Shown here in pieces: positions 6,220-30,162 of a stretch of DNA of 30,162 bases (positions are counted from its first letter, which is position 1; the number at the start of each line of letters is the position of its first letter). The notes beneath the pieces were generated by a model, which searched no databases, was not told where the DNA came from, and worked only from the letters and a program-made list of their open reading frames with translations. Source of the stretch: Vermamoeba vermiformis (taxonomy: Eukaryota); NCBI GenBank assembly GCA_045837725.1, contig JBEWZL010000101.1, forward strand, positions 496,001 to 526,162, read 5' to 3'. A program made the position numbers and the translations under genes.

Positions 6220-6561
6220 AATTATATATGTGTTATTATGTACAGCATGAAGGCACGAGAGGCATATGTAAATAAAGCAGTCTGTCAAGCAAGATCTGAT
6301 CTCATAAGATTCCGTTAGGCGTGCCAACCTGAAGGCTGTTGAGGAGAGAGCTTACATGCGCCCATTATTTGATAATAAATACAGTATAAAATTAGTGCAT
6401 TGTGGCTTGCTAACGCGTGCTTCGGATAATTTTGGAATAAATAACGGCCAAAGCGATTTTTTGCTTTCGTGAGCCTTGAATCAATAGAAGAAGAGAGTGC
6501 ACCATATAAATACCTTCTTTCTTCACTTATTTATTTAAACTATATTTATTATTGCTCGCGA

Positions 6562-9488: not shown

Positions 9489-9587
9489 AGTAACGAACTA
9501 TTGCTTCGTAATATTATTAGGGCGGTTTATATCGCCTTTTAAAATACATTTATTTAATTTTATTGTTTTGAAAATAAATTTTGAAAA

Positions 9588-10209: not shown

Positions 10210-10501
10210 GGCTATTCAAATGAAACTTTTGTGCCGTAAATCAGCCAAAACTGGAAAATTCGACAACAATTCCTGACTTATTGGGTTTGGCCCTGAAGAC
10301 ATAACATGAAATGTGTTCGATTAAGGTTTAAGCTTCATTTTTAAACATGAAGTCGCTGTCGAGAACAATTAAGGCACGAGAACTCAGCTCCCATCTTCGG
10401 CATTAACATTTGCCACGGAAAGGCATAAAAAAACAAAAATCATGCGCGTTGACTTGATTTATTCCGGTACAGAAGGTTGGACTTGCCGTAGTCGATCCCA
10501 T

Positions 10502-12719: not shown

Positions 12720-13072
12720 CGTGTTAGTATCTCTTGCCTGCCTTTAAAGTTAAAAAGACTTTCTTAATTACATAATGACAAGTGCTTGCGTGGTTTGTTA
12801 GTTGAAAAACGAACAAAAATAAACAATTCAAGATTTTTACTTGCTAGCGCTACTTTTCTTCGTTGAAAATCAGGAAGCTCCGCAGTCGAATATTGACTGC
12901 TTTATAAATCATGTTTGGCAGTTGAGAGGATCCATACAATCGTCCGTGACATGGAACAGATCTGTTCCATTGCAACGCTCGATTCAGCAGCCAGTAATTG
13001 TATTCTAGCATGCATCTGTCATAAGTTTAATAATAAATAAAAGTTTATTTTACATTGTTAACGGTATGAAAA

Positions 13073-15847
13073 TTAAGCCATAGGAATGGATGTAATATGC
13101 GGAGTGTTCTTCAATTGACGTCTTGAAGCAATATATCGCAATAATAGTCCTGATAATAGCACGGAATTGATCGGCATGAAGCTCGCACACGCTAAAATGC
13201 CAAATCCACTCGCTGCATTCACTGCATTGCCAAAACTGAGACCGAGAGCTAACACGAACGGAACTGTAACAGGACCTAATACAAAAAATATGAATAAGAC
13301 TCATCCACGGTGCATAAAATATTAGCTTATGCATATAATTTATCAATTTAAGTTGGTTAAATGAAGGCAATATTAGGTTGAAGAAAGAGATCTGTAGGCA
13401 AGATCTCGTTTTAAAATGAAATTTACCTGTTGTAACGCCAGCGCTATCCCAAGCAATATTGACAACGTCTTCTTGACTATAGTGCGTTAATACTAACGCT
13501 ACGCCGTAACCAACGATGATGAAGTAGATCAGTGAGAGTTGATAGAGGATAATAAGCACTCCTAATAACACGCCGGAGCCAACTCCGAGTGAAACTGCAA
13601 AGATGAGAATTGAGCTCTTAAACTGGCCCTGGGTGATTTGTTCCACTTTGGATCCCATGACGTTCATGACTGGTTCTGCAAATGTCGCCAAAACGCCCAA
13701 AAAGAATGCAAATAGGCATACGATGAGCAACCCGATCGATCGATCGAATAACGGCGAATTTTCAACGCCGTCAATGGCCATCAAACCCGTCGGCAAAACT
13801 TTTCCGAGAAGTCCAGCTAGTGGTGTCATGCCATAAGTCAGACCAAGATTGAACAATAGCATGCCTAGTTGTGCAAATCCAAAGCCTAGTAATATCATCT
13901 TCATAGATGTGCTAAACCAACTTCGGTTCTTTGGAGATCCGGATTCAGCCTCGCTGGATTCGCCACTCTCGAGCATATCCAATCGATTCTTCTCTTCGTA
14001 GCTTTCACTGTGTGAGTCCTCTGACTCGACTTCGGTGCCTACCATAGGAGCAGTATCTTTATATACTTGTTCTTTGCTTCTGGATCGCAAAAATTTGGAC
14101 GAAATGTCGTGGCCGGATGTAGTTCGTTCATTGAACATTTTTTGCTTGTGAAGCCATTCTTCGCGATCTTGAGTTGATACAAAGGCCGTAGTATCAATTA
14201 CGAAGCGTAGTTGAGGTACTACTGCTGCACCGGCTTTGGCTTCTTGTCGGTAACGTGCGATCTCTTCTTCAGAAGTTTCGTACAGGCCAAGTTCTTCCTT
14301 ATTAGCGCGCAGTACGTCCATTGAATTATTTAAGTTGACGTTAGGCGAACTTTCGACTGAAATGACGCGTAGTTCTTCTGATTTTGAAGCTTTTTGTTCG
14401 CTCGCATCCAACGCCATGATCTTGCGAAGAGTAATTTCTGGCAAGTGTCCTCGAAGGAATACTAATAGGACGACTATTAATAGAACTCCTAGCGGCACGA
14501 TAGCGCGAAAGGCGTAAATGACTTCGATGATTGGTGACTTTTCTAAGAACGGCAACTCGCTGTTGTGCTGAACTGACTTGGTCTCCTTCAAGATTTGGTC
14601 TATTGGCTTAGAGTACACCAATATGACACTAAGGATTTGGATACATAATACTGGCAGGAGCGCGGCCAAAGTGACAACTCCGAACGCATCCACTTTCTTG
14701 TTTGACTCTTCTTGTGGTCTTTCTTCGATAACTAAAAGAATTTTAGGACTCTATCCGATTGAATATTAATATAGTGCTTCGTTCGTACCTTCTTCTTCGA
14801 TAATTAAGCTATTAGTATTGAGCTTTGAGTTTCTTCTTTGAAGAAGCTGCGTTTCTCGTTCAAGTTGGTGTTTTCTGAACTCTTGTTGCGCACTGACACC
14901 AATACCAATCGATAATATAATAGGTACTGTTACTGGACCTAAATAAACAACATTAAGACCTGTGTAACGGGTTCAAATTTGACCGTCAAATTTCCAAACT
15001 AAAATTTTGACCGTCAAAAATTAAACGAGGACCACGTACCAGTTGCCACGACGCCAATATCCCAAGCCAAATTAATAAGAGGTCGTAGATTATCATTGGC
15101 CACGTGCATAAACAGCGACAGTGCAATAGTTGATCCGCCGATCGAGTAGATGAGCGGCTTGAGTGACCATCGTCTCGTGAACCTGATGATGCCTAATACG
15201 GTTGCTGTTCCTACTCCAAGTCCAATCGACAAGACGAGCATTTCGCGCCAATTGTTGACCATGTAGAACAAATAAGGCTGTTGTTTCCGCTTTACTTCTG
15301 ACGTCAGTGGCGCTATGGCTGCAATGGCTGGCTCGGCGTAAGTAACTGCAATGCCAATGACAAATGAGAGCATCAATACGAGGGCTATATGGAGCTTTTC
15401 GGGCATTAAGCGGCCAATGGATTCGCCAAGTGGCATCAAGGCAAATTTTAATCCTTCAATAAATAAAGTCAAGCCTAATATGACTGCTAATATTCCAAAT
15501 CCAACGACTGCGCCATTTTCTGCTGATTGGTGGAATATTAAAGCTGCAAATAAGACGAAATAAAGTGTGATCGGGATAATGACTTTGATCTGCTCGTATA
15601 GCTGTAATAAGAAGTAGTGCGTCACGTCGTAATGTTTGAATGCGTTGAATTGCTTCCATAGCTTCTTATATTTCTTTAGTACGAATTGTGGGAGTAAATT
15701 AAATGGAAACGGAGCGCGGATCTTGATGCGAGTTGGATCTGCTACCGACTCAAAGGTTAGAAAATATTAATATCATAGTTGATTTTAATGACAATATTAA
15801 GGCTTACCGTTATTTCCATTATCTACTAGACTTTCTTGTTCACTCAT
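13073..15847 (-). CDS. Membrane protein with two tandem DUF1538 domains separated by a long hydrophilic loop; 5 exons
   Basis: Half 1: GLTLFIEGLKFALMPLGESIG, TYAEPAI, WDIGVVATG|PVTVPIILSIGIG, DAFGVVTLAALLPV. Half 2: GMLLFNLGLTYGMTPL, TFAEPVM, WDSAGVTTG|PVTVPFVLALG, SGFGILACASFMPI. ATG at 15847; stop at 13075-13073. Confidence 0.88.
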
Positions 15848-16607
15848 TTTAATCGGATTTAATTTTTTGCATCCGTTTCATTATTTCTTTAGTGGTAAAA
15901 TGAAATAAAAATACCTCAGCGAGATGCATAAAAGATCGCTCTCGATATTTCATAAATTTGCTTAAATAATCATTGAAATCTCGTAATTTATTTAGCAAAC
16001 TGGTTGAGATTCGCAATAAAAAACAGAGTAAAGGCGCTAAAAATTCTACGACTGATCGAAATAAAAATATTACCGTGCAAAACAGGTCTGTCTGGCTCAG
16101 AAAAACGCCGGACCACCAATCCACTCTAATGAACCAACCTTTTGCTCATACCGTGTAGAATAATGATTATTTGTTATGAATGTAAAGGACGTTTTTGGTT
16201 GGTGAGCAAACAGGCTAGATGTGCAACACGTTGCTGGTGGTAAACATAATGACAAAGAGAAAGCTCCGAACAAGACCCAAGAGTAATCACACAAAGGAAA
16301 ACGATTGCTTTTCGATTACGCTCCAAGTAATGTGCCAAAAAGAGACTTTGTTGTAGTACTACAGCAAGCCAAAGTCTGGTCCTAGGACAAGCGGATCAGA
16401 ATCTGACCCTGCGAGTCCAGATCAGCACTTTTCCACTCCTTTTCATTTGCAGACGAGACAGCCGTTGATTTCTGGGAATTTATTGCTCGCATTACGCTGA
16501 TTGGTCAAGCATCAAGCTCAAAACCTCTCGATTTTTGTTGATTAAATTATCTTGCACACCGCGACACAACGATCGAACCACACTTCACACCTCTGCCGCA
16601 ATATTAA

Positions 16608-18570
16608 ATGCCTAGTGCTAAAGGAAAACAACGATTATCTTCGTCGCCCGTGCTGACCGAAGTACGCGCTGGTGAGAATGGAAATGGAATCGCGGGTAAA
16701 GGCAGCGCCAGCGAGAAGAAAAAGAAAATTATGCGCTTAAAAGAGTTTAGAGAGCTGTTACAAAAGAAAGTAAGGCAATAGTAATGCTAAATATCGAGGT
16801 TTATCAAGACCATCGCGTGATCTTGCGACTAACTAATATTTTTTCGCTTTTAGCTCAAGTACGACATCGGTACAAGTGCCAGACATATTCGCAATTGGGT
16901 TAATGATAAAAAGCCGTATTTGCCGCCCCGCTCGCCATTTTCATTGTTGCAAGAGCTGTTTTTCTACGATCCGTGGAAAGTTTTGATCGCCTGCATGGTA
17001 AGAAAATTAAAGCGATATTTTTAATATTATTTTCATCGATAATAAGCCTCAATGAGCGATTTAATCGCGGCCAACCATTTTCCTGGAATTTTAATTATCT
17101 GATCCAAATTTGACGTGACATTTTTTTCTTTAGTTCCTCAACAAAACTTCGGGCAAACAAGTCTCTACTGTATTATATAAATTCTTTAGCCGTTATCCAA
17201 CGCCTATTGACCTTCGAGACTCGAACAGAGAAGATGTGATCGCGATCATAAAACCGCTCGGGTAAGTAGCACCTCACAGCTATATATCGTCGGTCATGCG
17301 CTAACCATGCTAAATAGATTATTTAATAAGCGAGCTGACATGATTGTTCACTTTACAAAAGAGTTTTTGGCGGGTAATTGGCGGATGCCAGATCAGATCA
17401 AAGGTGCGTGGCTTTCTTTAACTCTCTAATCGCACAAAAATACTGTAACGTGCTTTAAAATAGTAATTTTATCGTTTGATAGGTATTGGAAAGTACGCTA
17501 ACGACGCTTATCGAATCTTTTGCTGCGGTGAATTCAAAGACGTGCAGCCAAACGATCACGCGTTGAACAAGTACCATGAGTGGCTTATCAAAGAAGATAA
17601 TAGGGACCAAGATAGTAAAAAAGTAAGTCGGTTAATAGTAAGGCTAATCTTGGATCGAAACTAAGCGGCTGTATTCAAAAGGGTTCTGGATCTGCTTCAT
17701 CCAGCGAAAATAACAGCAATGATTCGCAAGATAGTCAAAATCCACGTGAAATTTCAAGCAATGAGAGTGACCAGGACGAAAAAGAAGAAGAAAAGCCGAA
17801 CACAAAGTCAAAAAAGAATTCAGGCGTCAAAGAATCAAAGTCAGCGCATCATCAAGCGTTCTTAGTGGCCGGAGAATTAAAATGGAATATCCGACGTGAA
17901 GATTTGAATATTTCGCAAGAAGAACGTGATTGGTGGTCTGAATTGTTCGACATCCGAGACTATTTCTACAAAAAGTTCCAGAACGTTGAAATCGATGCTC
18001 AAAGTGATGAAATCTCGCAATCTGAAGAGGAGGTCGTTATAGAAAAATTGCCTAAAATGGCAAAATCTGCGACCAAAAAACGAAAAATTGAGATCGAGGA
18101 AGATGGGTACGAAAAGAAATCGAAAAAGAAGCAAAAAATTGACAAGGAAGCGGCCAAGTTAGAAAAACAACGCGCAAAAGAGGAGAAAAAGCTGGAAAAG
18201 GCCCAAAAGAAGGAGAATAAGAAAAAGAAGCAGATCGATCGTGAGGCCAACAAAGAAAAATCGACTGCAGAGCGTTCTTTACCAGAGAACTCGATTGTTA
18301 TTACTGTAAGTATTGTTAGCATAATTCTTAATACCTTGAATATAACTAACCTACCCCTAGAAAACGAATTTGCCTCCTGGATGGAGATTCGAAATCCGAA
18401 AGCGACAATCGGGTGGCACTAAAGGAAGAGAAGATTACTATTGGTAATTATCGCTCGTATTTAGCGCTAAATCATCGGCTTACACTGACTTTGACCTCAG
18501 GTACTCACCAGAAGGAAGAAAGTTCCGCAGTTTGGTTGAGATCCGAAAGCACCTTGCTAGTCAAAAATAG
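16608..18570 (+). CDS. MBD4: MBD4-like HhH-GPD G:T/U mismatch DNA glycosylase with a C-terminal methyl-CpG-binding domain (478 aa, 8 exons)
   Basis: Exons 16608-16769, 16854-16997, 17134-17261, 17318-17403, 17483-17622, 17682-18305, 18361-18443 and 18501-18570 total 1437 nt in frame. Glycosylase: [115 protein letters not shown]. Confidence 0.92.
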
Positions 18571-18654
18571 ATGCAGCAATCATATAAAGGTTAAATACAA
18601 GCGACTTTCGTCAGACTTGCAAAAACATTTTATTTTTGGCCCATAATATTAGCG

Positions 18655-19167
18655 TTACATTGTAAGAATTTTTCTGGGGATTAATCCGTAAGACAGAGCT
18701 CGAAAAACAACTACTACTAGTCCAATTATCTTTCCGGGGCTATAAAGATCGTTCGGAAGTAAATAAAAGATTAGAAACTGGACGAAGAAGTCAACGAGGC
18801 AAGTAGCGTAGCCAATCCAGCACAAGATCCGCACAGTTGTTCGTAATTTTGAGCTGTGCCCGAGTGACAAGGCGATGCCAAGTATAGGTCCTGATAATAG
18901 CACCATATCTACACCAAAGAGTAGTGCGGCGTAAGTGAAATCACTGGGGTATGATAGCCCAGAAGCAATGTAGCAGTAATGCCAAGCAAACGATAACGTC
19001 GATACAAAAGCAGACCATTCTGAAGTGTTTGGTCCGTCGCAAGGGGCTGGCAATGCAGGTGAATCTAGATAGTGTATTGGTAAGAAGGAGAGGCCTAGTA
19101 AGGTCAATGTTAAAGCCATTATTGACATTCCTAATAAATCTTTGTTGACGTGCTGTTTTTGCTGCAT
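18655..19167 (-). CDS. Intronless hypothetical membrane protein (170 aa, ~4 hydrophobic helices)
   Basis: ATG-to-TAA ORF filling the gap between the MBD4-like and ADH genes, with several long hydrophobic stretches. No family recognised. Confidence 0.65.
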   Translation of the reverse strand: MQQKQHVNKDLLGMSIMALTLTLLGLSFLPIHYLDSPALPAPCDGPNTSEWSAFVSTLSFAWHYCYIASGLSYPSDFTYAALLFGVDMVLLSGPILGIALSLGHSSKLRTTVRILCWIGYATCLVDFFVQFLIFYLLPNDLYSPGKIIGLVVVVFRALSYGLIPRKILTM

Positions 19168-19323
19168 TTTCGTGTAAACTATTGTTTAAAGCTAATAGGA
19201 ATTAATTTATGTCCGGTTCATAATTTGAACCAGTCCGCTGACGTGGACTTTTTTCTTTTTTTCGTTTCACGTCATAGGGACCGTTTGTTGCATTAAACAT
19301 TTTATCAACAATAATTAACAATA

Positions 19324-20730
19324 TTAATCAAACTTCAATACAGCGCGGAAGCGAACTTTGTTGGTCATCATCGCTTGATAAGCTTCGTTGACTTTGTCGA
19401 GCGGGAAGACTTCAATCATTGGACGAACACCAGTCAAAGCTGCAAAGTTGAGTGTGTCTTCGGTTTCAATAGGAGTACCGCTAGGCCTATAAAGATAGCG
19501 TATTAGATCCGAATCTGCAGCTAAAAATTCTCGAACAAGCAAATTTAACTTACCAACCGACAACACCACGGCGTTGACCAATCAAATCGAAAGCACCAAC
19601 TTTAAGAGGCTCATGAGGAATTCCGAGAACGAAAACACGACCGTCAGGAGCCAAACCAGGAGTAAGTGCTGAGATCGCATCTGCGTGAGGAGCAGTAGCG
19701 AGAATGACTTTAGCACCGCCGAGGGCTTGCAAGGCCTTAGCAGGGTCTTCCTTAGAGACGTCAATATAGATATGAGCACCGAGCTTCGTGGCCAGCTCTT
19801 TCTTGTCGGATCCGGAAGAAAGGGCGGCAACCTTGTAGCCCATCTTGGCAGCGAATTGGACACCTACACGAGTATTAATATCGAGCCACGATAATACATA
19901 GTTATAGTGCTTACCAAGGTGACCCAAACCACCCAAACCCTGGACTGCAACGAGATCACCAGCCTTGGCGTCAGAGTGACGAAGAGGGTTGTACACAGTG
20001 ATGCCTGCACACATCAATGGTGCTGCTTCTTCGAAGGACAAATCATCGGGAATGCGTGCAAGGGCTTCAAAAGGCACTATAGAAAATAAATAAGTATTAA
20101 TACTGAAAATTGGATTTGTAACGGATGCGCTCGTTGCATGCTGCGTATGTAATCAATGGTTGGAGCGATAATTTACCTGTAATATAGTTGCTGTATCCTC
20201 CGCTATAAGAAACACCGCAAATCTTCTCGTGTTTGCAAGTCATCCAGTCACCGCGACGGCATCTGTCGCACTGGAAGCAGTGACCACCGTGCCAGCCAAC
20301 ACCAACGCGATCTCCAGCCTTCCACTCAAGAACACCAGCACCGACCTATTAAATAAGCGATTAATTAAGAGTGATCAAACTAAAAATCGGATCGCATCTA
20401 ATTTACTCGTGTTAATACGCATGAAGACATACCTTATCGATAACACCGGCAACTTCGTGTCCGGGGCTAATAGGGTATTGAATAGTCGGGAAGACTCCTT
20501 CCTTAGTGAACATATCGCTGCAAAATCAAGAGGTCAGATTCGCGCGAAAAAATTTGATCCAGCAATTTTTAATAAATAATAAGAATTCTGGTATTAATTG
20601 CTACTAACCTATGGCATATACCACATGCGTGCACTTTAATACGCACTTGGTTTTGAGCAGGTTCAGGGAGGCTCTTTTCTTGAACGACGAATCGTTCGGC
20701 TCTAGCTTTTTCAACGACGGCAGCTTTCAT
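19324..20730 (-). CDS. Zinc-dependent medium-chain alcohol dehydrogenase (AdhP/CAD-like); ~6 exons
   Basis: MKAAVVEK...ACGICH|SD; PGHEVAG; GDRVGVGW; structural Zn motif CFQCDRCRRGDWMTC; AAPLMCAGITVYNPL; VQGLGGLGHLG; C-terminal KVRFRAVLKFD. Confidence 0.93.
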
Positions 20731-21585
20731 CGTGTATAGTATTTGTGTTGTTCTTATTGTTTTGTTGATGATTAATTATCGTACAAGATATCCTTTAAAT
20801 AGTTGCCACCGTTGCCCTGGCAAATCGCGGCGAGTAACAAGTTCCCGCGGCGTGCACAAAAATCAAGCCAGATCTCACCGGACGAGCTCGGACAAAGCTT
20901 AATGGTGCATATGGAGATTATTGATCCATCTTCATATCAAACTGCTCGAAGTACGAGGGGTGAGCCGGCAGATTCGATCGGCAATGGAAGCTCCGAAATC
21001 TCCGGTCCCAGAGCACTGTTCGTTGATTGATTATTTACAAAGACGTCGACGGCTTGTCGACCAACCCGAAGCTGAGGTACTGCATTGCATGATTCAATTG
21101 AACAGTGTCTTTTGGTAGGTGAGCTGTGCAGCAATTTCATTAGCATTTGATCAAATTTAGCATACGAAAAATATGTATGTATAGTATTGTTATTTTTGAT
21201 GATTGGTAACGTTTAAATAAGCTCTGTGCGCTGCGTTAAGTAAATTAGATTTTTGGAACCAGTTTTCAAGTTATTATTAGGTATAATATTATGAAGAATA
21301 GTATTACTAAGTACTATTCGTTAACGAGTAAATTAATTGTGAATAATAATTCATTATTTCAAAAAAAAAAAAAACGGCTAGTGCAATTAATCTGCTCTTG
21401 TTGCAGGTGCAACTTGACTTACTTCGCGTATTGTAGAGTTACATGATGATAATTGAGGCAATCATGTGGTCAAACGGTGTTTTGCGACTTTTGTTTGACC
21501 GATCAGATTTTGCGAGATTTTCTCCTCGCCAAACGATTCTAATACCGAAATTAACAACTTAACACAACACCTCTGTAATTATACT

Positions 21586-22214
21586 ATGGATCTTAAAGAA
21601 CAAAACGAACGAAGCTGCGAAGTTCTCGCTCAAATTATCAGACAACACGGCAAGCCAAATCCAAATTACCCCAAGTAAGTCTAATGTAAGAAATAATATT
21701 TTAATAATATTTTATGATTACCGGGGTATCGAATATTAGCAGTTTTCGAATTTAAATAAGCACTAGTTAATTTATGAATTTATTTTTTATGCTTGATGCT
21801 GAAAAATATCTTTTTAATAGTGACATTGACTTGGATTACGGTACTTTGCGTGTAAATGCCGAAGAGCAAATTGGTGGAATCATGGCCTTGCTTAAAAGCA
21901 TGAAGCAACGCGTAAGAAATTTAACGTTTTATTCAAGCTCAAATCCACGCTAAAATTTCGTTTTCCTGCGTAGAAAATTGTCGACTTCGTTGGTCCTATG
22001 TTGCACGATGACTCAACAGTTACTTTAATCAACGACTACTACCAAGAGTTCAAGACTCAACTGATCCGTTACGACGAGATCAAGGATAAAGTTAAAGGTA
22101 CGTGCAACCGCATTTTCTTTATATTTCCAATCCATATTTGCCTTTAATAAATATTTTTGCTAATATGTTACTATAGGAGAGATCACTGGTCACCAGAAGG
22201 TCGGTGGATGGTAA
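21586..22214 (+). CDS. Small Costars/ABRACL-like protein (113 aa, 4 exons; absent from the ORF track)
   Basis: Exons 21586-21674, 21821-21911, 21974-22097 and 22177-22214 give MDLKEQNERSCEVLAQIIRQHGKPNPNYPNDIDLDYGTLRVNAEEQIGGIMALLKSMKQRKIVDFVGPMLHDDSTVTLINDYYQEFKTQLIRYDEIKDKVKGEITGHQKVGGW. LLKSMKQRKIVDF.G..L.HDD resembles the Costars core LKAAKRRKIV.Y.GE.L...HDD. Confidence 0.7.
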
Positions 22215-22516
22215 AACCAAAAAAAAATCTACTTCAACTGTATTAATACACTAAGGCTCGCTCGTATATAAAATAATATTATACCTTGATTATCGAAATA
22301 TTGATGTTAGAGGCCAATGCACCGAGTCGCTGTTCCTGCTGAATTCATTGATCGGCTGGTAACCAATTTTTAGACTCCTAAGTTGACGACGTCAAATTGA
22401 CTTATTTAGTAGCAATTATAATATCGTCGTGGAGATAGAACGTTATTTGTCACGCAACATAAATTTTTTATTTTCTCTGTATGAAAATTGGCCCGCAAAG
22501 AGGTGGTTACGGATTA

Positions 22517-23059
22517 TTACTTGTGATTAGTGTTATTAGGAAATTGGTACAATCTTTGTTCTTCTTGCGAGTAGCGGTGCAGGACATCGAGGGGTGGCAC
22601 CACATCCACGAATCTGGAGTGCCTTCCACGTAGCTCCTCGAGTTCTGCTTGCGTGTAAACTGCACTATTTGTTATTAATTTAAATTGGTTGTTCCAATAA
22701 TCCTTGCAATACGAACGGCAATTGTTTACGGATTCCGTTTCAGATGTAGTTGCATCGCTTTCCATTTGCTGTTTAAAAACTTCGCCTGCATTTTGTTTAT
22801 ATTTGTTGTGTCACTTATATAGTTGTCTAATACAAGCGGAATATTCTTGGTGCTGCAAGGCGAGTCTTCGTTTTTCTTCTTGATCCAAAACTTGCATCTG
22901 CTTCGCATAAATTTCTTTTAAATATACGCCCGTGCCTAGCATTGCAACGCTAAAGACTAATAAGGAACCAGCACCTGCAGACAAAGAGCCGGCAATTGTT
23001 TTGCAGATCCGCTTGACAGAAAAAATACGTCCTCGTTGTGCTTGTTCTTGTGCAGACAT
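22517..23059 (-). CDS. Hypothetical single-pass membrane protein (2 coding exons; start uncertain)
   Basis: Exons 23059-22834 and 22785-22517 join in frame across a 48-nt GT-AG intron. One hydrophobic segment (SLLVFSVAMLGTGVYL), then a coiled region and CRSYC. Confidence 0.55.
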
Positions 23060-23283
23060 CTTGCTAGCTGTGTGTTCTAACAAATAAATAAGTGTTATTA
23101 ATTACGATAGTTTTGTTTCGGCCAAAAAACCAGCTGGCTGGCGATATGTTCTTTGCGCATAAAATTATTGCCGCCGTCGTAAGTAAATAAATAATGATAC
23201 TTTGTGAGAAGCAAACTTACCATTATCAGTGCTACAACGAGTAGAATTTCAATGCTCTAACATCTGGTTATTAATAAAAACTG

Positions 23284-25104
23284 TCATCCAGATCCAAGTA
23301 TGTTTGAGATCGCCTCTCGCACTTCTTTCGCTGTGGGACGATTGTTAGGATTAGCGTCCCAACACTTGATAATGAGCTGTCGGTAAGGCTTGGGACACAT
23401 AGACTTGTTAATTTTAGGCCTTTTTCCATCAGCAATTGCTTTGCGAATGTGATTTGTATCGTGCAAACCCTAACCAATCGTTAATCAGCCATTTCCTATT
23501 TCCAAATAAGGAAATTAGTATTTGAGTCGCTTACTTCCCAAATATTCTGTCCTGAGTGAAATATTTCCCAGAGAATCAATCCAAAGCCGTACACGTCTAC
23601 TTTTTCATTGAACGAGAACTCTTCAATGTCACGTGACTTTATTCGGAGCATCTCCGGTGCTTGAGATATAATACCACCGGCTCCCTACAATTAACTTAGT
23701 CCGTGGCGAAAGAAAAATTCGAGGTAATTATTTTACGTACTCGTTTGCGCTGGTAGACATCAGGGTTATTCAGTTCCGATATGAACATTGATAATCCAAA
23801 GTCACATATTCTCACACGCCAATCATTCGTTAACAAAATATTTTTGCTGTTGAAATCTAAGTGGATCACTTTCAACGTCTCGTGGATGTACACCAAGCCT
23901 ATCATACCAATCAAATATTAGTCTAATTATAGCAGTTATCGGCTACATATATTCCATACCATTAATTATGTCTTTGATTATAGTGTCTCTATGCTTGGCA
24001 AACTCGATGTTTGGATCCGGCGCTGAAGTTTTTGCTCGACGTCGTCCTGATTGATTTTGTATGTGTAATACGTCGTATAATGATCCCCTTGGACAATATT
24101 CCATAAATAGTAACTTCAATTCTGCTTGAAAATCTATAAATTGGACAACGTTCTCGTGCTTCGCTAGGCTAGAAAACTTAAGCCAGATCCGATTTGATTA
24201 ACGAGCTTTTGATATGTACCTTAATATATGCGCTTCATTTTCAATACTTTCTAATGTCTGTTTGTTATTATATTGCTTCACAGCGACAACACTATCGTTG
24301 TAATTTGCCTTCCAGATCTTGGAAAATCCACCAACGCCTACTACGTCCTCAAACTCGACTTCATTTGCATCGACTATAAGTCCGTTAATATTATAATATT
24401 AATGATATGTATTACCTTTTTCTCGTTTCTCTGGAGTAGATTCTTGTTGGGTAGCCGGATCTGCACTCGAAATTGTTAAGCTAGCCATGGACTGTTCAAT
24501 AGCCTTATCTTCTTTTGTTACATTTGCCTTATTTGGTAATTCAATAGGGCTGAGTTCTGTTGTCGGGTCGCTAACGTCACGGTGAACTTCGGTTTCGTCG
24601 CTGATCAGATCCAATTCGTTCAACAACGATAGCTCTTGGTCGTTTAAATAAAATTTTACCAAACTGAGGTATCCAGCCCTACATAATAGTAATTTAGCGG
24701 AAATTGACTGATCAAGCTGGATCTTACTTTTTGGTGAACGTTACACGGTCATTGTACAAAGAAAATTCGCCATTAGCAGGCATAATAGATGCATCTATAC
24801 CTTTAATATCCCATCTACCATATAGCGAATATTAATATAGGAGCTTTCAAACAGATCTGAACAACTTACACGAACTTGCATTGGTCGTCTTGCAGGATCT
24901 GAAAATTAATATCGAATTTTCCTTTATTTGGAAGCTTTTTGAGCAGATTTTTGCCTTGTTGAAGTGCTTTGTTATTTTCATTGTCCAATAAATACCACGC
25001 TAAAGTATACGGCGTTAGAGATTTGGTAATTCGACGATTAATAGCTTACTAGAATTATTATCGGCATTAATATTAATTTTTGAGCAATTTCCAGTAATTA
25101 ACAT
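23284..25104 (-). CDS. Tyrosine-kinase-like (TKL) protein kinase with an N-terminal extension; multi-exon, start uncertain
   Basis: VGVGGFSKIWKA, VAVK, HENVVQF, MEYCPRGSLYDVLH, VIHLDFNSKNILL, ICDFGLS, QAPEML, KVDVYGFGLILWEIF and CWDANPNNRPT. Stop TGA at 23286-23284. Confidence 0.88.
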
Positions 25105-25334
25105 GTAACTCTGGCTTTTTGTTTCGGAGATCGGCAAAATCTTCAAGCGTGCCGTCCATTTAGTTAATATTTCCATATGAAAATTAAATAAATATGAGCT
25201 ATGCTTGTTTCATGATCTTTATGGTGTTCCTTCGATTTTTAAACGGATAAAAAATGAAAGGCGGGAATTTGTTACTTCTGCCCCCGTTCGTCCCTTCAAT
25301 TTAACATATTTTATTTAATAACCGTACACAAACA

Positions 25335-26724
25335 ATGGCGCTTCGTAGAATACTTGGCTACTCTGTGCGTAGAGCCCAATATAAATTTACAAGGTCGATC
25401 AACTCAATGTTCGACATGTTTGACCAGTACTTGGGTCCTCACAATGGTGCAAGTATGTATTTACATATTTAGTAAATACTAAGAAGTATAATTAAATTAA
25501 ATAATCGGATAATTAACGCTAACCGTTGACAACAGATCTTGCTGTTCAAAATATTTCTGGAGCCTTCAAAAATTCAAATATTCCTAAAAGCGACTTATTA
25601 GGTAATTTCAAGACCTAAAATAATATTGGAAATATTTTTCTAATTTTTCTGTGCATTTTGATCTGCAGATCCGAAATCTAGATCAATCTTGCTCGCTGGA
25701 CATTCACATTGGGAGAATATTAAGCACAAAAAAGCACGTGCCGACAGTGCTCGAGCAAGCAAATTTCAGAAACTATCGTTAGAAATTACGACAGCTGTCA
25801 AACAAGGGGGACCAGATCTTCAGAGCAATTTACGATTGGCCCTGTTACTACAAAAAGCGAAAGAAATTAATTTTCCTAAAGACAGAGTTGAAGCCGCCAT
25901 TCAGAGAGTAAGCAAATACTAATTACCTATTCACATTAGTTGTTCGATCCTTAACTTGAGATGGATGTCGCTCCTGAGAAATTTCTGACGCGATAATTAG
26001 GGCTCTGGAAAAGGATCAGATAGTGCTGAGCCGATTATATACGAAGGCTATGGACCACAAGGCACAGCTATAGTAGTTGAAACATTGACAGACAATCGCA
26101 ACAGAACAGCGCAACTTATTCGCAAAATATTTTCAGATTATTCGTGCAATTTAGGCGCTACGGGATGTGTCTCGTATATGTTCAACAAATTAGGACAAAT
26201 AGTCATCCCTATGAACGTAAAAACTGAAGATGAAGTAAGTTAACCGGCATCCGCGGTTATTTTAATTTAAAGAGTTGTGATCAAATCATTAATGCGGATT
26301 AAATAATAATTTATTTTTAGATTACGGAGATTGCTTTGGAAGCAGGAGCTGAAGATATAAAATTTCCGGCTGTCGGAGAAAAACCTGAAGCTAAAGTAGG
26401 TTTATTTTAAAAATATTAATATTAATATTTTGTTATTTATAGCTAATTTGATACTAAATATGACAAATGTAACGTTTACTAATTTGGTTTCATAAATAGA
26501 TTTTTTGTAGAGTGGATGCGTTGTTCGATACCAAGACAGTCTTAGAAAGCAAAGGAATAATTCCGCGACAAATGTCGATCGTTCAATTGCCTCAATCGAC
26601 AGTTACATTCGCTAACGAAGAAAATTTAAAATTGTTCCAAGACTTTTTAATTGCGTTTGAAAATTGCGAGGATGTTGTAACCGTTACGCATAATGCAGAT
26701 CTGAAGGCTGAAGAGGACGAATAA
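25335..26724 (+). CDS. TACO1: YebC/PmpR-family protein (TACO1-like) with a probable mitochondrial presequence; 6 exons
   Basis: AGHSHWENIKHKKARAD, GGPDLQSNLRL, YEGYGPQGTAIVVETLTDNRNRT, SYMFNKLG, LEAGAEDI and EDVVTVTHNA. N-terminus MALRRILGYSVRRAQ. Confidence 0.92.
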
Positions 26725-26905
26725 ATAATGTAAGCTTAAGTGATGAATTTCTTTAATTAATTTTAAAACTACTTACCCAACACAAATCCGTTACAAATTT
26801 TTTTTTCCGAAATTTTTATGAAAAGAAGAGCTGTTGCGTTAATAAGACTGTGCGCATAAATTTATACTATTTATTAATCGTTTAAAACGCGCTGAGGGAT
26901 TTGTT

Positions 26906-29900
26906 TTACTGGCTGTTAAAGTCCAGGCACGTAAACGAATCGTCGCAATCTTTTTGACGAAAGACAATGAAGCGCGAGTTACACAACGGAGACAGTTCGC
27001 AATTAGGCGGCACATTGATCACGTGCTCCCAGTGCATAGTCTTCAAGTTCCAAATGACGCCTAGATCCGCTTTGTGACTTTGAACTAGCGCTCGACCGTG
27101 CTGATTTATCCCAGAACGCGCTGCAAATGGAAATTTCAATGAACATTAGCGGATCCGTAATTTTTATCTCGAATGGAGATAAATATGTTAAGATTTACCT
27201 GATTAGTCTTCAGAGCGTATAATTCTTTCATCATTCGCGTATCAAATAAGGTGACATAATGACACGAGGAATGCGCCACGTGAAATTCATCGACAAATTT
27301 CACTTTGAATTTGTTTCCTCTGTGGTAATAATTATGTTTGGGAACATATTCCATCGGGTTCATCACCATTTTCAAATTTCGATCGGCGATGCCCAATCTT
27401 GAGTTGTTCGTAGCCACGGCAATGGTATTATTGTACGGATTATAGGCAGCTGAGCCTATTGTGAACATATTCTCCGCTCCTTGTGGCTGTATTCGACCAA
27501 TTTGTTTGCCGAGCTCTAAATCGAAATAATACGCCTCTGCAATATAAAAAGAAATAAGAAAGTTAAGTCAATAAATGTTCGCGAAACTTTGAGATAGGTT
27601 CTTAAAATAGTCCCTAGGATTATATCCAAGCGTTGCAAATTAATTTTACTGCAAAAGAGTTCATCAGAGAAAACCTAATTTTCGGCACCGTGAAAATTAT
27701 GAAATGACACGTGTCACAAAGTATCATGAGTCGACTTGTGACGTCACTTACTATTACTAGTGAGTATAGTGTTGTTGCCTATTGATACCATAAATTCGCC
27801 GTAATAAGCGTTTGGAAACTGACTAAATGAATAAGTGTGTGTTTGGTCGTTTCTGTGAATAACAAACTCTCGGTGGAGATAAAATCCAAACGTCGGGATT
27901 GTTCCGCTACTGTCACTTTCAATAATATTGCAACCATTCAAGTAGGTTTGTTCGTGCCATTTGGCGCCGAAATTTTGAACCGTTTCGGTGTGACAATTCC
28001 ACAATTTGATTTGATTACGATCGTTAATTAGCAGCCAATTCTCGTCCATATCAAGCATTGAAAGCTTGGGAGAATAATTATAATTATCGGTGAACTCAAT
28101 TTCTCCGTTGGCTGCTGTCGCGATTCTTTTCACTGAAAATCTTCCGTTCTTCCAATTCGACGATAATCTAAAGAATATTAGCAATTAATACTATCGCATG
28201 ATAAAGTTGATAAATTCGAGCAATTGTAATATAGTCATTTTTACCTATAATGTTTTGCGTATTGGGCTTGCATTAAAGAGCGACTATCCGTTTTTATATC
28301 GGAATAAATTAGCGGAAAATCTTCGCGTAATTGCTTCTCGCCAGGCGCCACAATCTCGCGTAAATCTCGTCGTTCGCATAACGATTTGCACGTCAAAAAT
28401 AGATTCATGATCGTAATGGCATCTAAATCTTTGCAAATCATCATTGCTACCTCCGCGGGCAAATGATAGAACGGAAACTCTGTATTGCCAAAAATGGAAA
28501 TATTATCGATAATATTCACTGAACCGTCATCATTTGATATTTGATGCGCGTTACCTTAATGTGAATTATATTAATAATATTTATAAGTTAATTGACTTAA
28601 TGTTTTGCTTACGTGATACCATGTGATTATAAAGTGGTGCTTTCGATATAAATCTCAAGTTGGTGCATTGATAGACCCACTCGGATCCGCAAATAATCAT
28701 GCGATCAATTATTGATCGAAGAGTAGCCATACTTAACAAATTCTCTTTCATCAGTTCTTCAATGACCAACTGCAATTCTGCAAGTAATAATCGTTAAAAA
28801 TTACGGAGGAGAAATTTCATGGTAATTACTTACGTGGCGAAATCCGCCGTTGGAGTTTTGGCAAAAGAAGTAACAAGGCGCTCTTGCCTTTGTGATTCCT
28901 AATATAGTAATATCGATATTAGAATAATACTTCTAAAATAATGTCAATCGTACTGTTGTAAAAGCAATTTTTTCAACATTTTTGGCTCGACGTCGTTCAT
29001 CCAATCCAAGCTAGCTGAATTTTGAATAATATAATGCACAAAAGACATTCCGTTGCATTTTACTATAAAGGTGGTCTATAATTAGTACACGAATAAGGTA
29101 AACGTTTTCGGTGTAATTTAGGGTTAGGGTTTGACAACGGTAAAAATTATTCGTACCTCGTTCGAGATCAACATTTTTTGCCAAATAAGGAAATAAATAT
29201 GCCAATTTTTTGTATGTCAAGCAAAACACAAGCAACGGAACGCCGCTTTCACATTGACCGAGATTCAATTGCTTTCGGTCCTGTAACAGCTGAATCAATT
29301 GGATTTTGCGTTCATTTGATATATTTTCTGATAGCACTATCACGTATGGAATTGTTTTGATCGTTGGAAGTGGATAACGGATATTTTTTTGTTCGAACGG
29401 ATCTGCTCCTAAATCCAGTAGAGCAACGAATAATGAAGGGTATTCGATGGTGTTCCATAATGTCAATATTTTAAGCTTCAGTAATTCTGCGAGAATTGGG
29501 CTCAGTTTTTGCGCTCGATCTAGATCGCGGGTCCGTTCGGAATCTGCCTCAAAAATCAGTTCTGGTGGCCAGATTGCGCAATCCTCTTGATTATATAATA
29601 TAGATTGTTATATTTCATAATTATTCGGTCCAATGAGGGCTACTTACCAAAGAATTTAGCCCAACGAAAACTTTCTTCGTGTTTTTTCAATTCGCTCGGT
29701 TCTAATATTTGTTTTAGAATTAAATCCGCATCGTCTGCCGTTGTGTGGGATATTCTTGCATTTGGTATCGCCGAAATAATTATTGCTGTTTTTTTGGCGC
29801 CCTCCAAATCACCAGATCTGATTTTCTTTCGAAAGCAGTCAAATCGTTAGTTTATTGATATCTGTCGTAATTAATATGCATAATAATTTTTGTAATAATA

Positions 29901-30162
29901 TCTTACGTCATGCAACGTATTAAATAGCGTAGTTTTATCGAGTAAGGACATCTGTCTCCACAACTCGGATTCCTCAGTTATTTCCATCTGATCGAGCTCA
30001 ATATCTTCTATTTCGATGGACACGCGTATAATTGTGACTAAATTCAGTCTATTGTGTTCGGTCGGTCCCTACTAAACAAGGAATAATTTTTTCGAAATTG
30101 ATCTCGTTCCCTGTTTTTTTCTTTTACCGTTTTGAGCAGATCAACCATAGATGAAACAAGGA
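26906..30162 (-). CDS. Large multi-exon protein: degenerate ankyrin-like N-terminal region, central F-box and beta-propeller-like C-terminus; 5' end at or beyond the window edge
   Basis: F-box FYHLPAEVAMMICKDLDAITIMNLFLTCKSL followed by LSSNWKNGRF. Propeller-like IKLWNCHT, VTLFDTRMM and VIWNLKT. Upstream exons give LHDKIRSGDLEGAKK, ALLDLGADPF, NGMSFVHYII and NHKGKSALLLL. They can join the F-box exon in frame via TCA C|GTAAGC (28612) to TAAG|GT AAC (28554). Confidence 0.6.

What the first reader, a model, noticed from the sequence alone, without database searches (positions are those of the whole stretch)
16819..25950. Apparent ~135-150 bp periodic spacing of GATC clusters through exons and introns: candidate nucleosome-scale sequence code
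Seen, GATC positions read by hand: 16819, 16968, 17101, 17238, 17391, 17554, 17689 (mean step 145); 18092, 18233, 18540, 18825; 19506, 19673, 19809, 19954; 23864, 24014, 24186, 24315, 24458, 24603, 24720, 24854 (mean 141); 25397, 25535, 25668, 25815, 25946 (mean 137). Earlier in the window: 4051, 4207, 4491, 4772, 4926, 5210, 5351 (single or double steps of ~141-156). Skipped positions often hold near-matches (gagattcgaaatccg at ~18385, aatccg at ~18685). Established: linker-targeted DNA methylation (ApT 6mA in ciliates and green algae; Dnmt5 CpG methylation in some algae) tracks nucleosome spacing. Inference: a similar system here, with a repeat at or below the 147-bp core length, which would be unusually tight. 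Caveat: some off-phase GATCs were left out of these lists, and overall GATC density is near one per 150-200 bp, so chance spacing could mimic the pattern.
Basis: partly seen in the sequence, partly recalled or inferred. Interest (0 to 1): 0.7.

Follow-up and report, generated by a model that had tools for sequence, protein, structure and literature searches.

The report
141-bp GATC/TA chromatin-scale sequence code
This stretch of a compact eukaryotic genome is written in repeating units of about 141 bases, in which TA-rich words alternate with TA-free zones carrying GATC, through genes, introns and spacers alike, which looks like DNA-encoded positions for unusually tightly packed nucleosomes.

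Summary

**GATC.** GATC pair distances peak at about 145, 290, 415, 565 and 690 bp. The best period is 139-140 bp, and 0 of 1000 random placements reach the observed score.

**TA-rich words.** These carry a much stronger 140-141 bp signal (TA 24.8, ATA/TAT 43.2, against GATC 9.4). They sit in exact antiphase to GATC.

**The lattice.** 214 units with a mean of 140.7 bp cover the whole 30 kb. They run across at least 10 unrelated genes on both strands, through exons, introns and spacers. There is no 141-bp tandem repeat.

**GATC is specific.** It is the most over-represented of the 256 tetramers (189 against 111 expected). In coding DNA it is placed by synonymous codon choice (63 against 37.5 ± 4.4).

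**Reading.** The best reading is a DNA-encoded, close-packed nucleosome array with a repeat of about 141 bp. GATC, often as CRGATCYG, marks the stiff, TpA-poor zone rich in A/T runs, which is most likely the short linker.

**What stays open.**
- Whether GATC is methylated cannot be tested here.
- Which phase is the linker and which the nucleosome centre is inferred, not shown.
- The organism is an unidentified eukaryote.

Nucleosome-scale sequence periodicities are known. The phased GATC motif and this signal strength look new.

The parts
1..30162 (.). Continuous lattice of 214 units. Spacing is mean 140.7 bp, sd 8.1, range 106-188. Each unit has a TA-rich centre and a TA-poor zone that often carries GATC.
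   Evidence: Wavelet phase of TA. Whole-window Fourier peak at 141.5 bp: TA power 41.8, GATC power 12.7. Cross-correlation of GATC with ATA/TAT has minima at 0 and ±140 and maxima at ±70 and ±205.
16819..25950 (.). The range given in the finding.
   Evidence: best period 139 bp, z 7.99; 0 of 500 nulls reach it.
16819..17692 (.). Run of 7 in-register GATC sites, with steps of 133-163 bp.
   Evidence: Units shown aligned.
23864..24857 (.). Run of 8 in-register GATC sites (mean step 141), inside a protein kinase gene on the minus strand.
25397..25949 (.). Run of 5 in-register GATC sites (mean step 137), reaching into the TACO1/YebC gene.
4051..5354 (.).
24389..24415 (.). Example of a TA-rich unit centre, made of alternating A/T words of the AATATT / ATTAAT / TATA kind.
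   Evidence: Row 24459. AATATTA occurs 66 times against 17.5 expected, ATATTAAT 27 against 5.3, TAATATTA 14 against 2.2, all at phase about 0.
8300..8315 (.). Example of a GATC cluster: three GATC at 6-bp spacing. Similar clusters lie at 13734-13745 and 25660-25684.
   Evidence: 139 clusters in all; 40 hold 2-4 GATC. Spacings of 4-6 bp occur 15 times.
18384..18398 (.).
   Evidence: HATCCG/CGGATD words are antiphase, R 0.47-0.56.
13053..14750 (-). Long open frame of 566 codons in a DUF1538 gene, almost all of it matched by a homologue (matches from 14732 down to 13371 and from 13276 down to 13076, with an inferred intron at 13277-13370). It shows the code overlaid on coding DNA.
   Evidence: Pfam E 1e-40. 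86% identical homologues. TA power 7.1 at 146 bp within this stretch alone.
6562..9485 (+). NHE8-type Na+/H+ exchanger gene. 10 exon segments and 9 intron gaps were placed by homology and used to test exons against introns.
19336..20691 (-). Zn-dependent alcohol dehydrogenase gene with 6 homology-placed exon segments, also used in the exon/intron test.

Best explanation
The window carries a DNA-encoded chromatin lattice. Every 141 bp or so, two kinds of zone alternate.

- One is a broad, flexible zone rich in TpA and alternating A/T words (ATA/TAT, AATATT, ATTAAT, TATA).
- The other is narrower and almost free of TpA. There, A and T occur as runs (AA/TT, T5 tracts), CpG and GA/TC are enriched, and the palindrome GATC is concentrated, often as CRGATCYG and often doubled.

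The lattice runs without interruption through coding exons, introns and spacers of unrelated genes on both strands. In coding DNA it is written mainly by synonymous codon choice.

I read it as positioning information for a close-packed nucleosome array with a repeat of about 141 bp. In this reading the TA-rich zone is the wrapped centre, and the stiff GATC zone is the very short linker or nucleosome edge.

**Shown:** the periodicity, the antiphase relation, the specificity of GATC, and the overlay on coding sequence.

**Inferred:** that nucleosomes are the cause, which phase is the linker (my estimate is about 65% that it is the GATC zone), and any role for GATC as a mark. I put adenine methylation of GATC at about 30%.
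For: **Period and significance.**
- GATC z 9.3 at 139-140 bp, 0 of 1000.
- Scores of TA 24.8, ATA/TAT 43.2 and GATC 9.4. 0 of 300 jitter nulls reach any of them, and no other period exceeds 6.2.
- 40 bacterial control loci give at most 3.7 (TA), 6.7 (ATA/TAT) and 4.7 (GATC).

**Coherence.** A single Fourier line at 141.5 bp holds over all 30 kb. There are 214 units at 140.7 ± 8.1 bp.

**Antiphase.** ATA/TAT is 70% below its mean at GATC and 40-70% above it at ±70 and ±205 bp. TATA is 3.4-fold enriched at the TA peak and 0-0.08-fold at antiphase. GATC is 2.6-fold enriched at antiphase and 0.2-0.5-fold at the peak.

**Physical contrast.** TpA observed/expected is 0.49 at the GATC phase against 1.08 at the peak. 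AA/TT observed/expected is 1.3 against 1.0. GC is 43% against 34%. A6/T6 tracts are antiphase, R 0.47. T5 tracts flank GATC at 10-30 bp on both sides.

**10-bp signal.** WW dinucleotides show a 10.2-bp autocorrelation signal of 0.64, against 0.34 ± 0.06 in shuffles (0 of 200).

**GATC specificity.**
- It is first of 256 tetramers, observed/expected 1.70.
- It is 2.7-fold over a phase-specific dinucleotide model at antiphase.
- CGGATC occurs 41 times against 9.5 expected, CAGATC 47 against 12.3, and CAGATCCG 10 against 0.5.

**Not an exon/intron effect.**
- GATC has R 0.49 in Pfam-supported frames and 0.47 elsewhere.
- The intron share is flat across phase, 0.24-0.32.
- Synonymous shuffles give 37.5 ± 4.4 GATC against 63 observed, and phase scores of 0.20 against 0.49 for GATC and 0.037 against 0.177 for TA, 0 of 1000 each.
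- GATC falls in all three codon frames: 20, 14 and 29.

**No tandem repeat** of about 141 bp.

**Precedent in print.**
- A/T peaks spaced about 150 bp coincide with nucleosome centres, and 6mA lies about 70 bp from them in Chlamydomonas (PMC12146615).
- Sub-147 periodicities of 120.9 nt in Trichomonas and 132 nt in Giardia, with an MNase ladder of about 120 bp (PMC2577358).
Against: - No chromatin, MNase or modification data exist for this DNA, so nucleosomes are inferred from the period alone.
- 141 bp is below the 147-bp core length and below the shortest repeat named in a 2026 review (154 bp, S. pombe; PMC12961432).
- The assignment of linker and dyad is not settled. In AT-rich Tetrahymena, GC-richer DNA holds the nucleosomes (PMC4617968, abstract). 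That would put the nucleosome centre on the GATC zone.
- My two tests for rotational phasing were uninformative. WW and SS dinucleotides are not locked to GATC (164 of 300 and 80 of 300 nulls reach the observed value). The excess of local 10-bp power at the TA peak is not specific to 10 bp.
- Only 106 of 214 units carry a GATC.
- GATC alone is not significant in the last 4.2 kb.
- This is one window of one unidentified genome. Whether the pattern is genome-wide is unknown.
Confidence: 0.7

Rival explanations
1. GATC is the substrate of a linker-directed DNA adenine methyltransferase, either AMT1/MTA1c-like or Dam-like. The phased GATC sites exist to be methylated and to sharpen nucleosome positions.
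For: - GATC contains ApT and fits the VATB preference reported for Rhizopus 6mA, which peaks at linker centres (PMC12019607, passages).
- 6mA lies in linkers in Tetrahymena (PMC5714169) and across AMT1-bearing eukaryotes (PMC12695648).
- Here GATC is specifically enriched and phased beyond what composition explains. It is kept by synonymous choice in coding DNA and occurs as palindromic doublets.
Against: - Methylation cannot be seen in a sequence.
- Known eukaryotic 6mA targets ApT with little or no wider consensus. GATC is 3.8% of methylated adenines in Tetrahymena.
- Here CATG (R 0.08) and ApT in general do not share the GATC phase.
- No MT-A70 or Dam domain appears among the 271 open frames scanned, though that covers the window only.
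- Reported 6mA is concentrated after transcription starts, whereas this lattice is uniform over the window.
Confidence: 0.3
2. The phases are the other way round. The GC-richer GATC zone is the nucleosome centre and the TA-rich zone is the linker.
For: - In AT-rich Tetrahymena, GC-rich DNA underlies the sequence-directed nucleosomes (PMC4617968, abstract).
- Here GC is 43% at the GATC phase and 34% at the TA peak.
Against: - A-tracts and T5 runs, which are known to be stiff and to exclude nucleosomes (established knowledge, recalled), sit with GATC and not with the TA words.
- The TA-rich zone is the broader of the two, while a 141-bp repeat leaves room for only a very short linker.
- A/T peaks mark nucleosome centres in the fungi and the alga mapped in PMC12146615.
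Confidence: 0.25
3. GATC has no function of its own. The lattice, or at least the GATC enrichment, is a by-product of damage, repair or replication biases that differ between linker and core DNA over long-fixed nucleosome positions.
For: - One-mismatch relatives of GATC also lean to the same phase, R 0.1-0.33, as do GA/TC, CG and AA/TT. This suggests a zone-wide compositional regime.
- Only half of the units carry a GATC.
Against: - GATC exceeds phase-specific dinucleotide and trinucleotide expectations, at 2.7-fold and 1.5-1.8-fold.
- It is the top tetramer of 256.
- It has an extended palindromic context. GATC-YG makes up 88 of 378 half-sites, and CAGATCCG occurs 10 times against 0.5 expected. 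A simple context bias does not predict this.
Confidence: 0.3
4. The pattern is chance spacing picked out by hand, or a side effect of exon/intron alternation, tandem repeats or repeated protein domains.
Against: - With all sites counted, 0 of 1000, 0 of 500 and 0 of 300 nulls reach the observed score.
- No tandem repeat of about 141 bp exists.
- The phase is the same in coding and non-coding DNA, and the intron share is flat over phase.
- Bacterial loci that carry a homologue of one of the window's genes (DUF1538) show nothing comparable.
Confidence: 0.01
5. The 141-bp lattice serves a periodic DNA-binding system other than canonical nucleosomes. This could be a sequence-specific architectural protein binding CRGATCYG or the AATATT words.
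For: - The period is below the canonical core length.
- There are two families of palindromic words, as expected for dimeric binders.
- In Rhizopus the MTA1c complex binds linkers through a Myb-like subunit with an AAC-containing motif. Here AACGG and AACGGAT are antiphase, R 0.35 and 0.72.
Against: - Only 3 of 18 AACGGAT sites continue into GATC, and there is no fixed offset between AACGG and GATC.
- The 10.2-bp WW signal and the contrast between stiff and flexible zones are what nucleosomal DNA shows.
- The searches I ran for a phased GATC motif or a lattice of about 140 bp turned up no such system.
Confidence: 0.08

Closest known systems
   Same: - Arrays of A/T-content peaks at nucleosome-size spacing.
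- The peaks coincide with nucleosome centres in vitro and in vivo.
- 6mA lies about 70 bp from the peaks in Chlamydomonas.
- The arrays are commoner in small, compact genomes.
   Different: - CAPs are described as shifts in A/T content of about 150 bp, strongest near transcription starts and in GC-rich genomes.
- Here the genome has 38.6% GC and the period is 141 bp.
- The carriers are specific words (TpA and AATATT-type against GATC), and the array is uniform over 30 kb.
- No phased GATC is mentioned in the parts I read.
- I did not open their Data S1 (scores for 1117 lineages), and it may cover this organism or its kin.
120.9-nt periodicity of Trichomonas vaginalis, with 132 nt in Giardia (Chen et al. 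2008, PMC2577358; abstract and sections 11-12 read)
   Same: - A sequence period below 147 nt, tied to an MNase ladder of the same size.
[quoted passage not shown]
- The Giardia period prefers ApT and TpA.
   Different: - Their signal starts at the 5' end of transcripts and fades along them.
- It was detected by pooling many genes.
- Here it is visible in a single window, crosses gene borders and introns, and has a second, antiphase palindromic motif.
DNA-guided nucleosomes and linker 6mA in Tetrahymena (Beh et al. 2015, PMC4617968, abstract; Wang et al. 2017, PMC5714169, passages)
   Same: - Sequence oscillation in coding regions positions nucleosomes and biases codon usage.
- 6mA at ApT sits in linkers with the period of the array.
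   Different: - The period is about 200 bp.
- GC-rich DNA is the nucleosomal part.
- 6mA has no consensus beyond AT, and GATC is 3.8% of the sites.
MTA1c-dependent symmetric 6mA of early-diverging fungi (Rhizopus microsporus, PMC12019607; passages read)
   Same: - 6mA at ApT within VATB, which GATC fits.
- It is highest at linker centres.
- The complex binds linkers.
- The genomic DNA is DpnI-sensitive.
   Different: - The methylated clusters lie downstream of transcription starts.
- The passages I read report no encoded GATC periodicity.
- Nucleosomes are about 188 bp apart on average (my arithmetic from their counts).
Linker CpG methylation by Dnmt5 in prasinophytes and other small algae (Huff and Zilberman 2014; recalled, and seen only as cited in PMC12695648)
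   Same: - A periodic mark between tightly packed nucleosomes.
- CpG is not depleted.
   Different: - The mark is on CpG, not on GATC.
- Here CpG is only 1.4-fold enriched at the GATC phase and is not the leading signal.

Membership tests
Nucleosome-scale genomic sequence periodicity (CAP-type arrays) | A/T-rich peaks in consecutive arrays with 100-200 bp spacing | tested here: met
   214 consecutive units at 140.7 ± 8.1 bp. AT content is 55.5% at GATC against 64-66% at ±70 and ±205 bp. TA score 24.8 at 141 bp.
Nucleosome-scale genomic sequence periodicity (CAP-type arrays) | The peaks coincide with mapped nucleosome positions | not testable with these tools
   No MNase, chemical-map or ATAC data for this DNA. 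The organism is unidentified.
Transcript-anchored periodicity (Trichomonas type) | The period constrains codon usage in coding DNA | tested here: met
   Synonymous shuffles lose the signal. TA phase score 0.177 against 0.037 ± 0.019, and GATC 0.49 against 0.20 ± 0.09, 0 of 1000 each.
Transcript-anchored periodicity (Trichomonas type) | The signal starts at the 5' end of transcripts and decays along them | tested here: inconclusive
   No transcription start sites are known here. The lattice keeps a spacing of about 141 bp across gene borders, with slow phase drift and a few slips. The wavelet smooths over gaps.
Linker-directed ApT adenine methylation (AMT1/MTA1c) | 6mA present on ApT | not testable with these tools
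   Sequence only.
Linker-directed ApT adenine methylation (AMT1/MTA1c) | Targets are ApT in general (VATB or no consensus) lying between nucleosomes | tested here: not met
   Of the 10 NATN word classes only GATC is strongly antiphase (R 0.48). CATC/GATG has R 0.21 and CATG 0.08. ApT overall is 1.3-1.4-fold enriched at the TA peak.
Linker-directed ApT adenine methylation (AMT1/MTA1c) | MT-A70 methyltransferase and its partner genes present in the genome | not testable with these tools
   None among the 271 open frames of this window scanned against Pfam. The rest of the genome is out of reach.
Linker CpG methylation (Dnmt5 type) | CpG concentrated at the internucleosomal phase and not depleted | tested here: met
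   CG is 1.4-fold at the GATC phase against 0.7-fold at the TA peak. CpG observed/expected is 1.1-1.38 at all phases. This shows a compatible sequence only, not methylation.
Tandem repeat or satellite DNA | Head-to-tail copies alike in sequence with the period in question | tested here: not met
   TRF finds only three arrays, with periods of 11-15 bp. There are no direct-repeat families near 141 bp.

The most novel reading that the evidence does not exclude
This organism has a hard-wired, nearly crystalline chromatin lattice with a repeat of 141 bp, shorter than the canonical nucleosome core. The palindrome CRGATCYG is written into the short linkers, even at synonymous sites of coding DNA. It would serve as the target of a GATC-directed adenine methyltransferase or reader that locks the array in place. 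That would be a two-layer nucleosome code, encoded in DNA and reinforced epigenetically, and it would be readable from the sequence alone.
Probability: 0.2. Interest if true: 0.9.

Novelty: new variant of a known kind. Interest (0 to 1): 0.72.

Why it matters
How far DNA sequence, rather than remodelling enzymes, sets nucleosome positions is a long-standing dispute. In the best-known cases the encoded signal is weak and appears only after averaging thousands of genes.

Here it can be read in one 30-kb stretch:
- TATA words vary more than 40-fold between the two phases.
- The pattern bends synonymous codon choice.
- It ignores gene borders.

That makes the organism a natural test bed for three questions:
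- How tightly nucleosomes can be packed. A 141-bp repeat would be below the 154 bp that a 2026 review names as the shortest.
- What a coding sequence pays to carry a second code.
- Whether a specific palindrome (GATC) acts as a linker mark.

There is also a simple bench prediction. Naked genomic DNA cut at GATC should give a nucleosome-like excess of fragments of about 141 and 282 bp.

Tried and rejected
**Intron predictor.** A regular-expression predictor found 67 and 61 candidates on the two strands, against 56-77 in shuffled sequence, so I dropped it. I used homology-placed exons instead: 19 exon segments and 16 intron gaps from three genes. The intron borders are approximate.

**Dyad versus linker.** I tried to decide this from 10-bp phasing.
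- Anchoring on GATC gave nothing (164 of 300 and 80 of 300 nulls reach the observed value).
- Local 10-bp power is 1.15-1.17-fold higher at TA peaks, but the same holds for periods of 11-14 bp.
- Verdict: inconclusive.

**Myb-site idea.** AACGG beside GATC might have pointed to an MTA1c p1-like binder. Only 3 of 18 AACGGAT continue into GATC, and there is no preferred offset. I keep it as a weak lead.

**Taxon.**
- DUF1538: the best named hits are green algae at 30-32% identity; unnamed records reach 80-86%.
- Alcohol dehydrogenase: the hits look bacterial.
- Protein atlas: bacterial DUF1538 clusters only, scores below 0.9.
- NHE8 exon: the best named hits are animals at about 50%; an unnamed record reaches 91%.
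- No tRNA and no Rfam match.
- Result: an unidentified eukaryote. Its short introns often begin with GTAAGT-like donors. CTAAC-like words lie before several candidate 3' ends, though I saw those only in the listing of the discarded predictor.

**DNA of relatives.**
- The scan of genome contigs with the 91% relative found none (64 pattern matches, 0 confirmed).
- The second scan gave 80 bacterial loci, of which I used the 40 of at least 15 kb as negative controls only.
Conservation of the lattice in relatives therefore stays unchecked.

**Literature.** Searches for a phased GATC motif or a periodicity of about 140 bp in a eukaryotic genome found no such report in the held library. Subscription journals and supplements were not covered.

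Full report
**What the window is.**

The window is 30162 bp with 38.6% GC. It is gene-dense eukaryotic DNA. Stop-to-stop frames match Pfam families in this order:

| Gene | Coordinates | Strand |
|---|---|---|
| Rieske + Pyr_redox_2 | 1345-3307 | - |
| Metallo-beta-lactamase | 3934-4655 | + |
| Na+/H+ exchanger | 6931-8860 | + |
| DUF4326 | 9699-10037 | - |
| F-box | 12421-12708 | - |
| Two DUF1538 domains | 13053-15766 | - |
| Zn-dependent alcohol dehydrogenase | 19553-20345 | - |
| Protein kinase | 23287-24197 | - |
| TACO1/YebC | 25662-26721 | + |
| F-box-like | 28244-28555 | - |

- Exons are short and are split by gaps of 36-268 bp, which I infer to be introns.
- There is no tRNA and no Rfam match.
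- The organism could not be named. The closest proteins are unnamed records at 80-91% identity. The best named hits are green algae at 30-32% for DUF1538 and animals at about 50% for the NHE8-type exchanger.

**Checking the observation.**

- 34 of the 35 listed coordinates are exact GATC starts, and one is off by one base.
I therefore tested with every site counted.
- All-pairs distances among the 189 GATC pile up at 131-160, 281-300, 401-430, 561-580 and 681-690 bp, with troughs between.
- A cosine score over pair distances of 40-1000 bp peaks at 139-140 bp with z 9.3. None of 1000 uniform placements reaches it; the null maximum is 5.6.
- None of 300 nulls in which each site is jittered by ±70 bp reaches it.
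- The signal holds in the finding's range (z 7.99, 0 of 500) and in the 16.8 kb before it (z 5.98, 0 of 500). It does not hold on its own in the last 4.2 kb, which has 22 sites (247 of 500).

**The larger pattern.**

GATC is not the main carrier of the period. When all words of 1-4 bases were scanned, the strongest 140-bp signals were ATA/TAT, TA, AATA, TATA, ATTA and ATAT, and GATC came eighth.

| Word | Score at 140-141 bp | Highest score at any other period |
|---|---|---|
| TA | 24.8 | 3.9 |
| ATA/TAT | 43.2 | 6.2 |
| GATC | 9.4 | 2.2 |

No jitter null reaches any of these (0 of 300 each).

- A plain Fourier transform of the whole window has a line at 141.5 bp for both TA (power 41.8) and GATC (power 12.7). 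The lattice therefore stays roughly coherent over more than 200 repeats.
- A wavelet phase of TA gives 214 units with a mean of 140.7 bp and sd 8.1. The phase drifts slowly, with a few slips near 2.3, 4.5, 10.3, 18.8 and 28.5 kb.
- GATC is in exact antiphase. ATA/TAT is about 70% below its mean at GATC, 40-55% above it at ±65-75 bp, below it again at ±145 bp, and 54-70% above it at ±195-205 bp.
- Folded on phase, TATA runs from 0-0.08-fold at antiphase to 3.4-fold at the peak. GATC runs from 2.1-2.6-fold at antiphase to 0.2-0.5-fold at the peak.
- 106 of 214 antiphase centres have a GATC within 35 bp, against 32 of 214 TA-peak centres.

**What distinguishes the two zones.**

| Measure | GATC zone | TA zone |
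|---|---|---|
| GC content | 43% | 34% |
| TpA observed/expected | 0.49 | 1.08 |
| AA and TT observed/expected | about 1.3 | about 1.0 |

- In the GATC zone, GA/TC and CpG are also enriched.
- A6/T6 tracts share the GATC phase, R 0.47. T5 runs flank GATC at 10-30 bp on both sides.
- So A and T occur as runs in one zone and as alternating TA/AT words in the other.
- The TA zone is marked by AATATTA (66 against 17.5 expected), ATATTAAT (27 against 5.3) and TAATATTA (14 against 2.2).
- The GATC zone is marked by CGGATC (41 against 9.5), CAGATC (47 against 12.3) and CAGATCCG (10 against 0.5). 88 of 378 half-sites read GATC-YG.
- GATC often comes in clusters. There are 139 clusters, and 40 of them hold 2-4 sites. 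Spacings of 4-6 bp occur 15 times.
- WW dinucleotides also show a 10.2-bp autocorrelation signal that shuffles do not reach (0.64 against 0.34 ± 0.06, 0 of 200).

**GATC is specific, not a shadow of composition.**

- It is the most over-represented of all 256 tetramers: 189 against 111 expected from trinucleotides, and against 106 from base composition.
- Other palindromes built from the same four bases show no phase. CATG, ACGT, AGCT, TGCA and TCGA have R 0.03-0.10, against 0.48 for GATC.
- Against a dinucleotide model fitted separately in each phase bin, GATC is 2.7-fold over expectation at antiphase and 0.64-0.94-fold at the TA peak. Against a trinucleotide model it is still 1.5-1.8-fold over.
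- One-mismatch relatives lean the same way only weakly, R 0.06-0.33.

**Exons, introns and coding constraint.**

- The phase preference of GATC is the same inside Pfam-supported frames (R 0.49, n 64) as elsewhere (R 0.47, n 125).
- In 19 homology-placed exon segments it is R 0.33 (n 27). In the 16 intron gaps between them it is R 0.61 (n 15).
- The share of intron bases is flat across phase, 0.24-0.32. The lattice is therefore not an alternation of exons and introns.
- I shuffled synonymous codons within each of the 26 frames, which keeps protein sequence and codon usage. Results over 1000 shuffles:

| Measure | Observed | Shuffled | Shuffles reaching observed |
|---|---|---|---|
| GATC count | 63 | 37.5 ± 4.4 | 0 of 1000 |
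| GATC antiphase score | 0.49 | 0.20 ± 0.09 | 0 of 1000 |
| TA in-phase score | 0.177 | 0.037 ± 0.019 | 0 of 1000 |

- GATC falls in all three codon frames (20, 14 and 29) and across many dipeptides. It is a DNA-level signal.
- There is no tandem repeat of about 141 bp.
- 40 bacterial loci of at least 15 kb, out of 80 fetched around homologous DUF1538 genes, reach at most 3.7 (TA), 6.7 (ATA/TAT) and 4.7 (GATC) at any period from 80 to 260 bp.

**Interpretation.**

- A strand-symmetric lattice of about 141 bp that ignores gene borders, reading frames and introns is what a regular nucleosome array would impose or require. This is inference; no chromatin data exist for this DNA.
- Precedents are in print:
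  - A/T peaks spaced about 150 bp mark nucleosome centres in fungi and Chlamydomonas, with 6mA about 70 bp away (PMC12146615).
  - Trichomonas has a 120.9-nt period matched by an MNase ladder of about 120 bp, and Giardia has one of 132 nt (PMC2577358).
  - Tetrahymena coding DNA carries nucleosome-guiding GC oscillations (PMC4617968, abstract).
- A repeat of 141 bp is below the 154 bp that a 2026 review names as the shortest. The same review cites arrays of about 130 bp assembled in vitro on telomeric DNA (PMC12961432).
- Which phase is the linker? I favour the GATC zone, at about 65%, for three reasons. It is the narrower zone. It is TpA-free and rich in A/T runs, which are stiff (established knowledge, recalled). 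And the published CAP data put nucleosome centres on A/T peaks.
- The opposite assignment has support from Tetrahymena and yeast, where nucleosomal DNA is the GC-richer part.
- My two sequence tests for rotational phasing could not decide between them.

**The methylation idea.**

- GATC holds an ApT and fits the VATB context of fungal 6mA, which peaks at linker centres (PMC12019607).
- Linker 6mA is widespread in eukaryotes that carry AMT1 (PMC12695648).
- Known systems, however, methylate ApT with little further consensus, and GATC is 3.8% of the sites in Tetrahymena (PMC5714169).
- Here only GATC, not CATG or ApT in general, sits at that phase.
- CpG is not depleted at any phase.
- No methyltransferase gene lies in the window.
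- I put methylation of these GATC sites at about 30%. A passive by-product is about equally likely, and a sequence-specific binder is less likely.

**Novelty and limits.**

- Nucleosome-scale sequence periodicity is a known kind of feature. The new elements appear to be the second, antiphase palindromic motif, the period of about 141 bp, and a strength that makes the code legible in a single window.
- Six searches of the held library found no report of a phased GATC motif or a genomic periodicity of about 140 bp. The library lacks most subscription journals, and I opened no supplements.
- Everything rests on one window of an unidentified genome.
- DNA of relatives could not be reached. The first scan of genome contigs confirmed none of its 64 pattern matches.

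Noticed in passing
window 13053-15766 (-), 9699-10037 (-), 19336-20691 (-): Three genes look bacterial by their nearest relatives (a double DUF1538 protein, DUF4326 and a Zn-dependent alcohol dehydrogenase). The DUF1538 and alcohol dehydrogenase genes are split by inferred introns, and the DNA of all three carries the 141-bp lattice. They may be old horizontal acquisitions that have since been fully adapted to the host genome.
   Followed up: partly
window 10882-10897, 10911-10926, 27703-27718: Three copies of a palindromic element, ATGACACGTGTCA(Y), built around CACGTG. Two of them lie 29 bp apart on either side of a GATC. CACGTG occurs 15 times against 4.4 expected. It is probably a promoter or other regulatory site.
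   Followed up: no
whole window: WW and SS dinucleotides show a 10.0-10.2 bp autocorrelation signal stronger than the 3-bp codon signal. Its position within the 141-bp unit could not be fixed.
   Followed up: partly
around the 189 GATC sites: T5 runs, but not A5 runs, are 2-2.7-fold enriched 10-30 bp on both sides of GATC as read on the plus strand. This strand asymmetry may reflect the predominance of minus-strand genes. I did not resolve it.
   Followed up: no
window 17619-18419 (+): An open frame of 267 codons, rich in lysine and glutamate by eye, with no Pfam match. The lattice and in-register GATC sites continue through it.
   Followed up: no
intron candidates across the window, e.g. 16826-16900, 17262-17317, 18306-18360, 25453-25535: Candidate introns show GTAAGT-like donors; GTAAGT/ACTTAC occurs 40 times against 13.3 expected. 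ACTAAC or GCTAAC words lie shortly before the 3' YAG. This fits a tightly defined branch site, as in fungi and some protists. It comes only from the listing of the discarded predictor.
   Followed up: no
L061 (bacterial control locus): One Mariprofundaceae locus gave an ATA/TAT score of 6.7 at 144 bp, the highest among the 40 controls. It is probably noise. I did not examine it.
   Followed up: no
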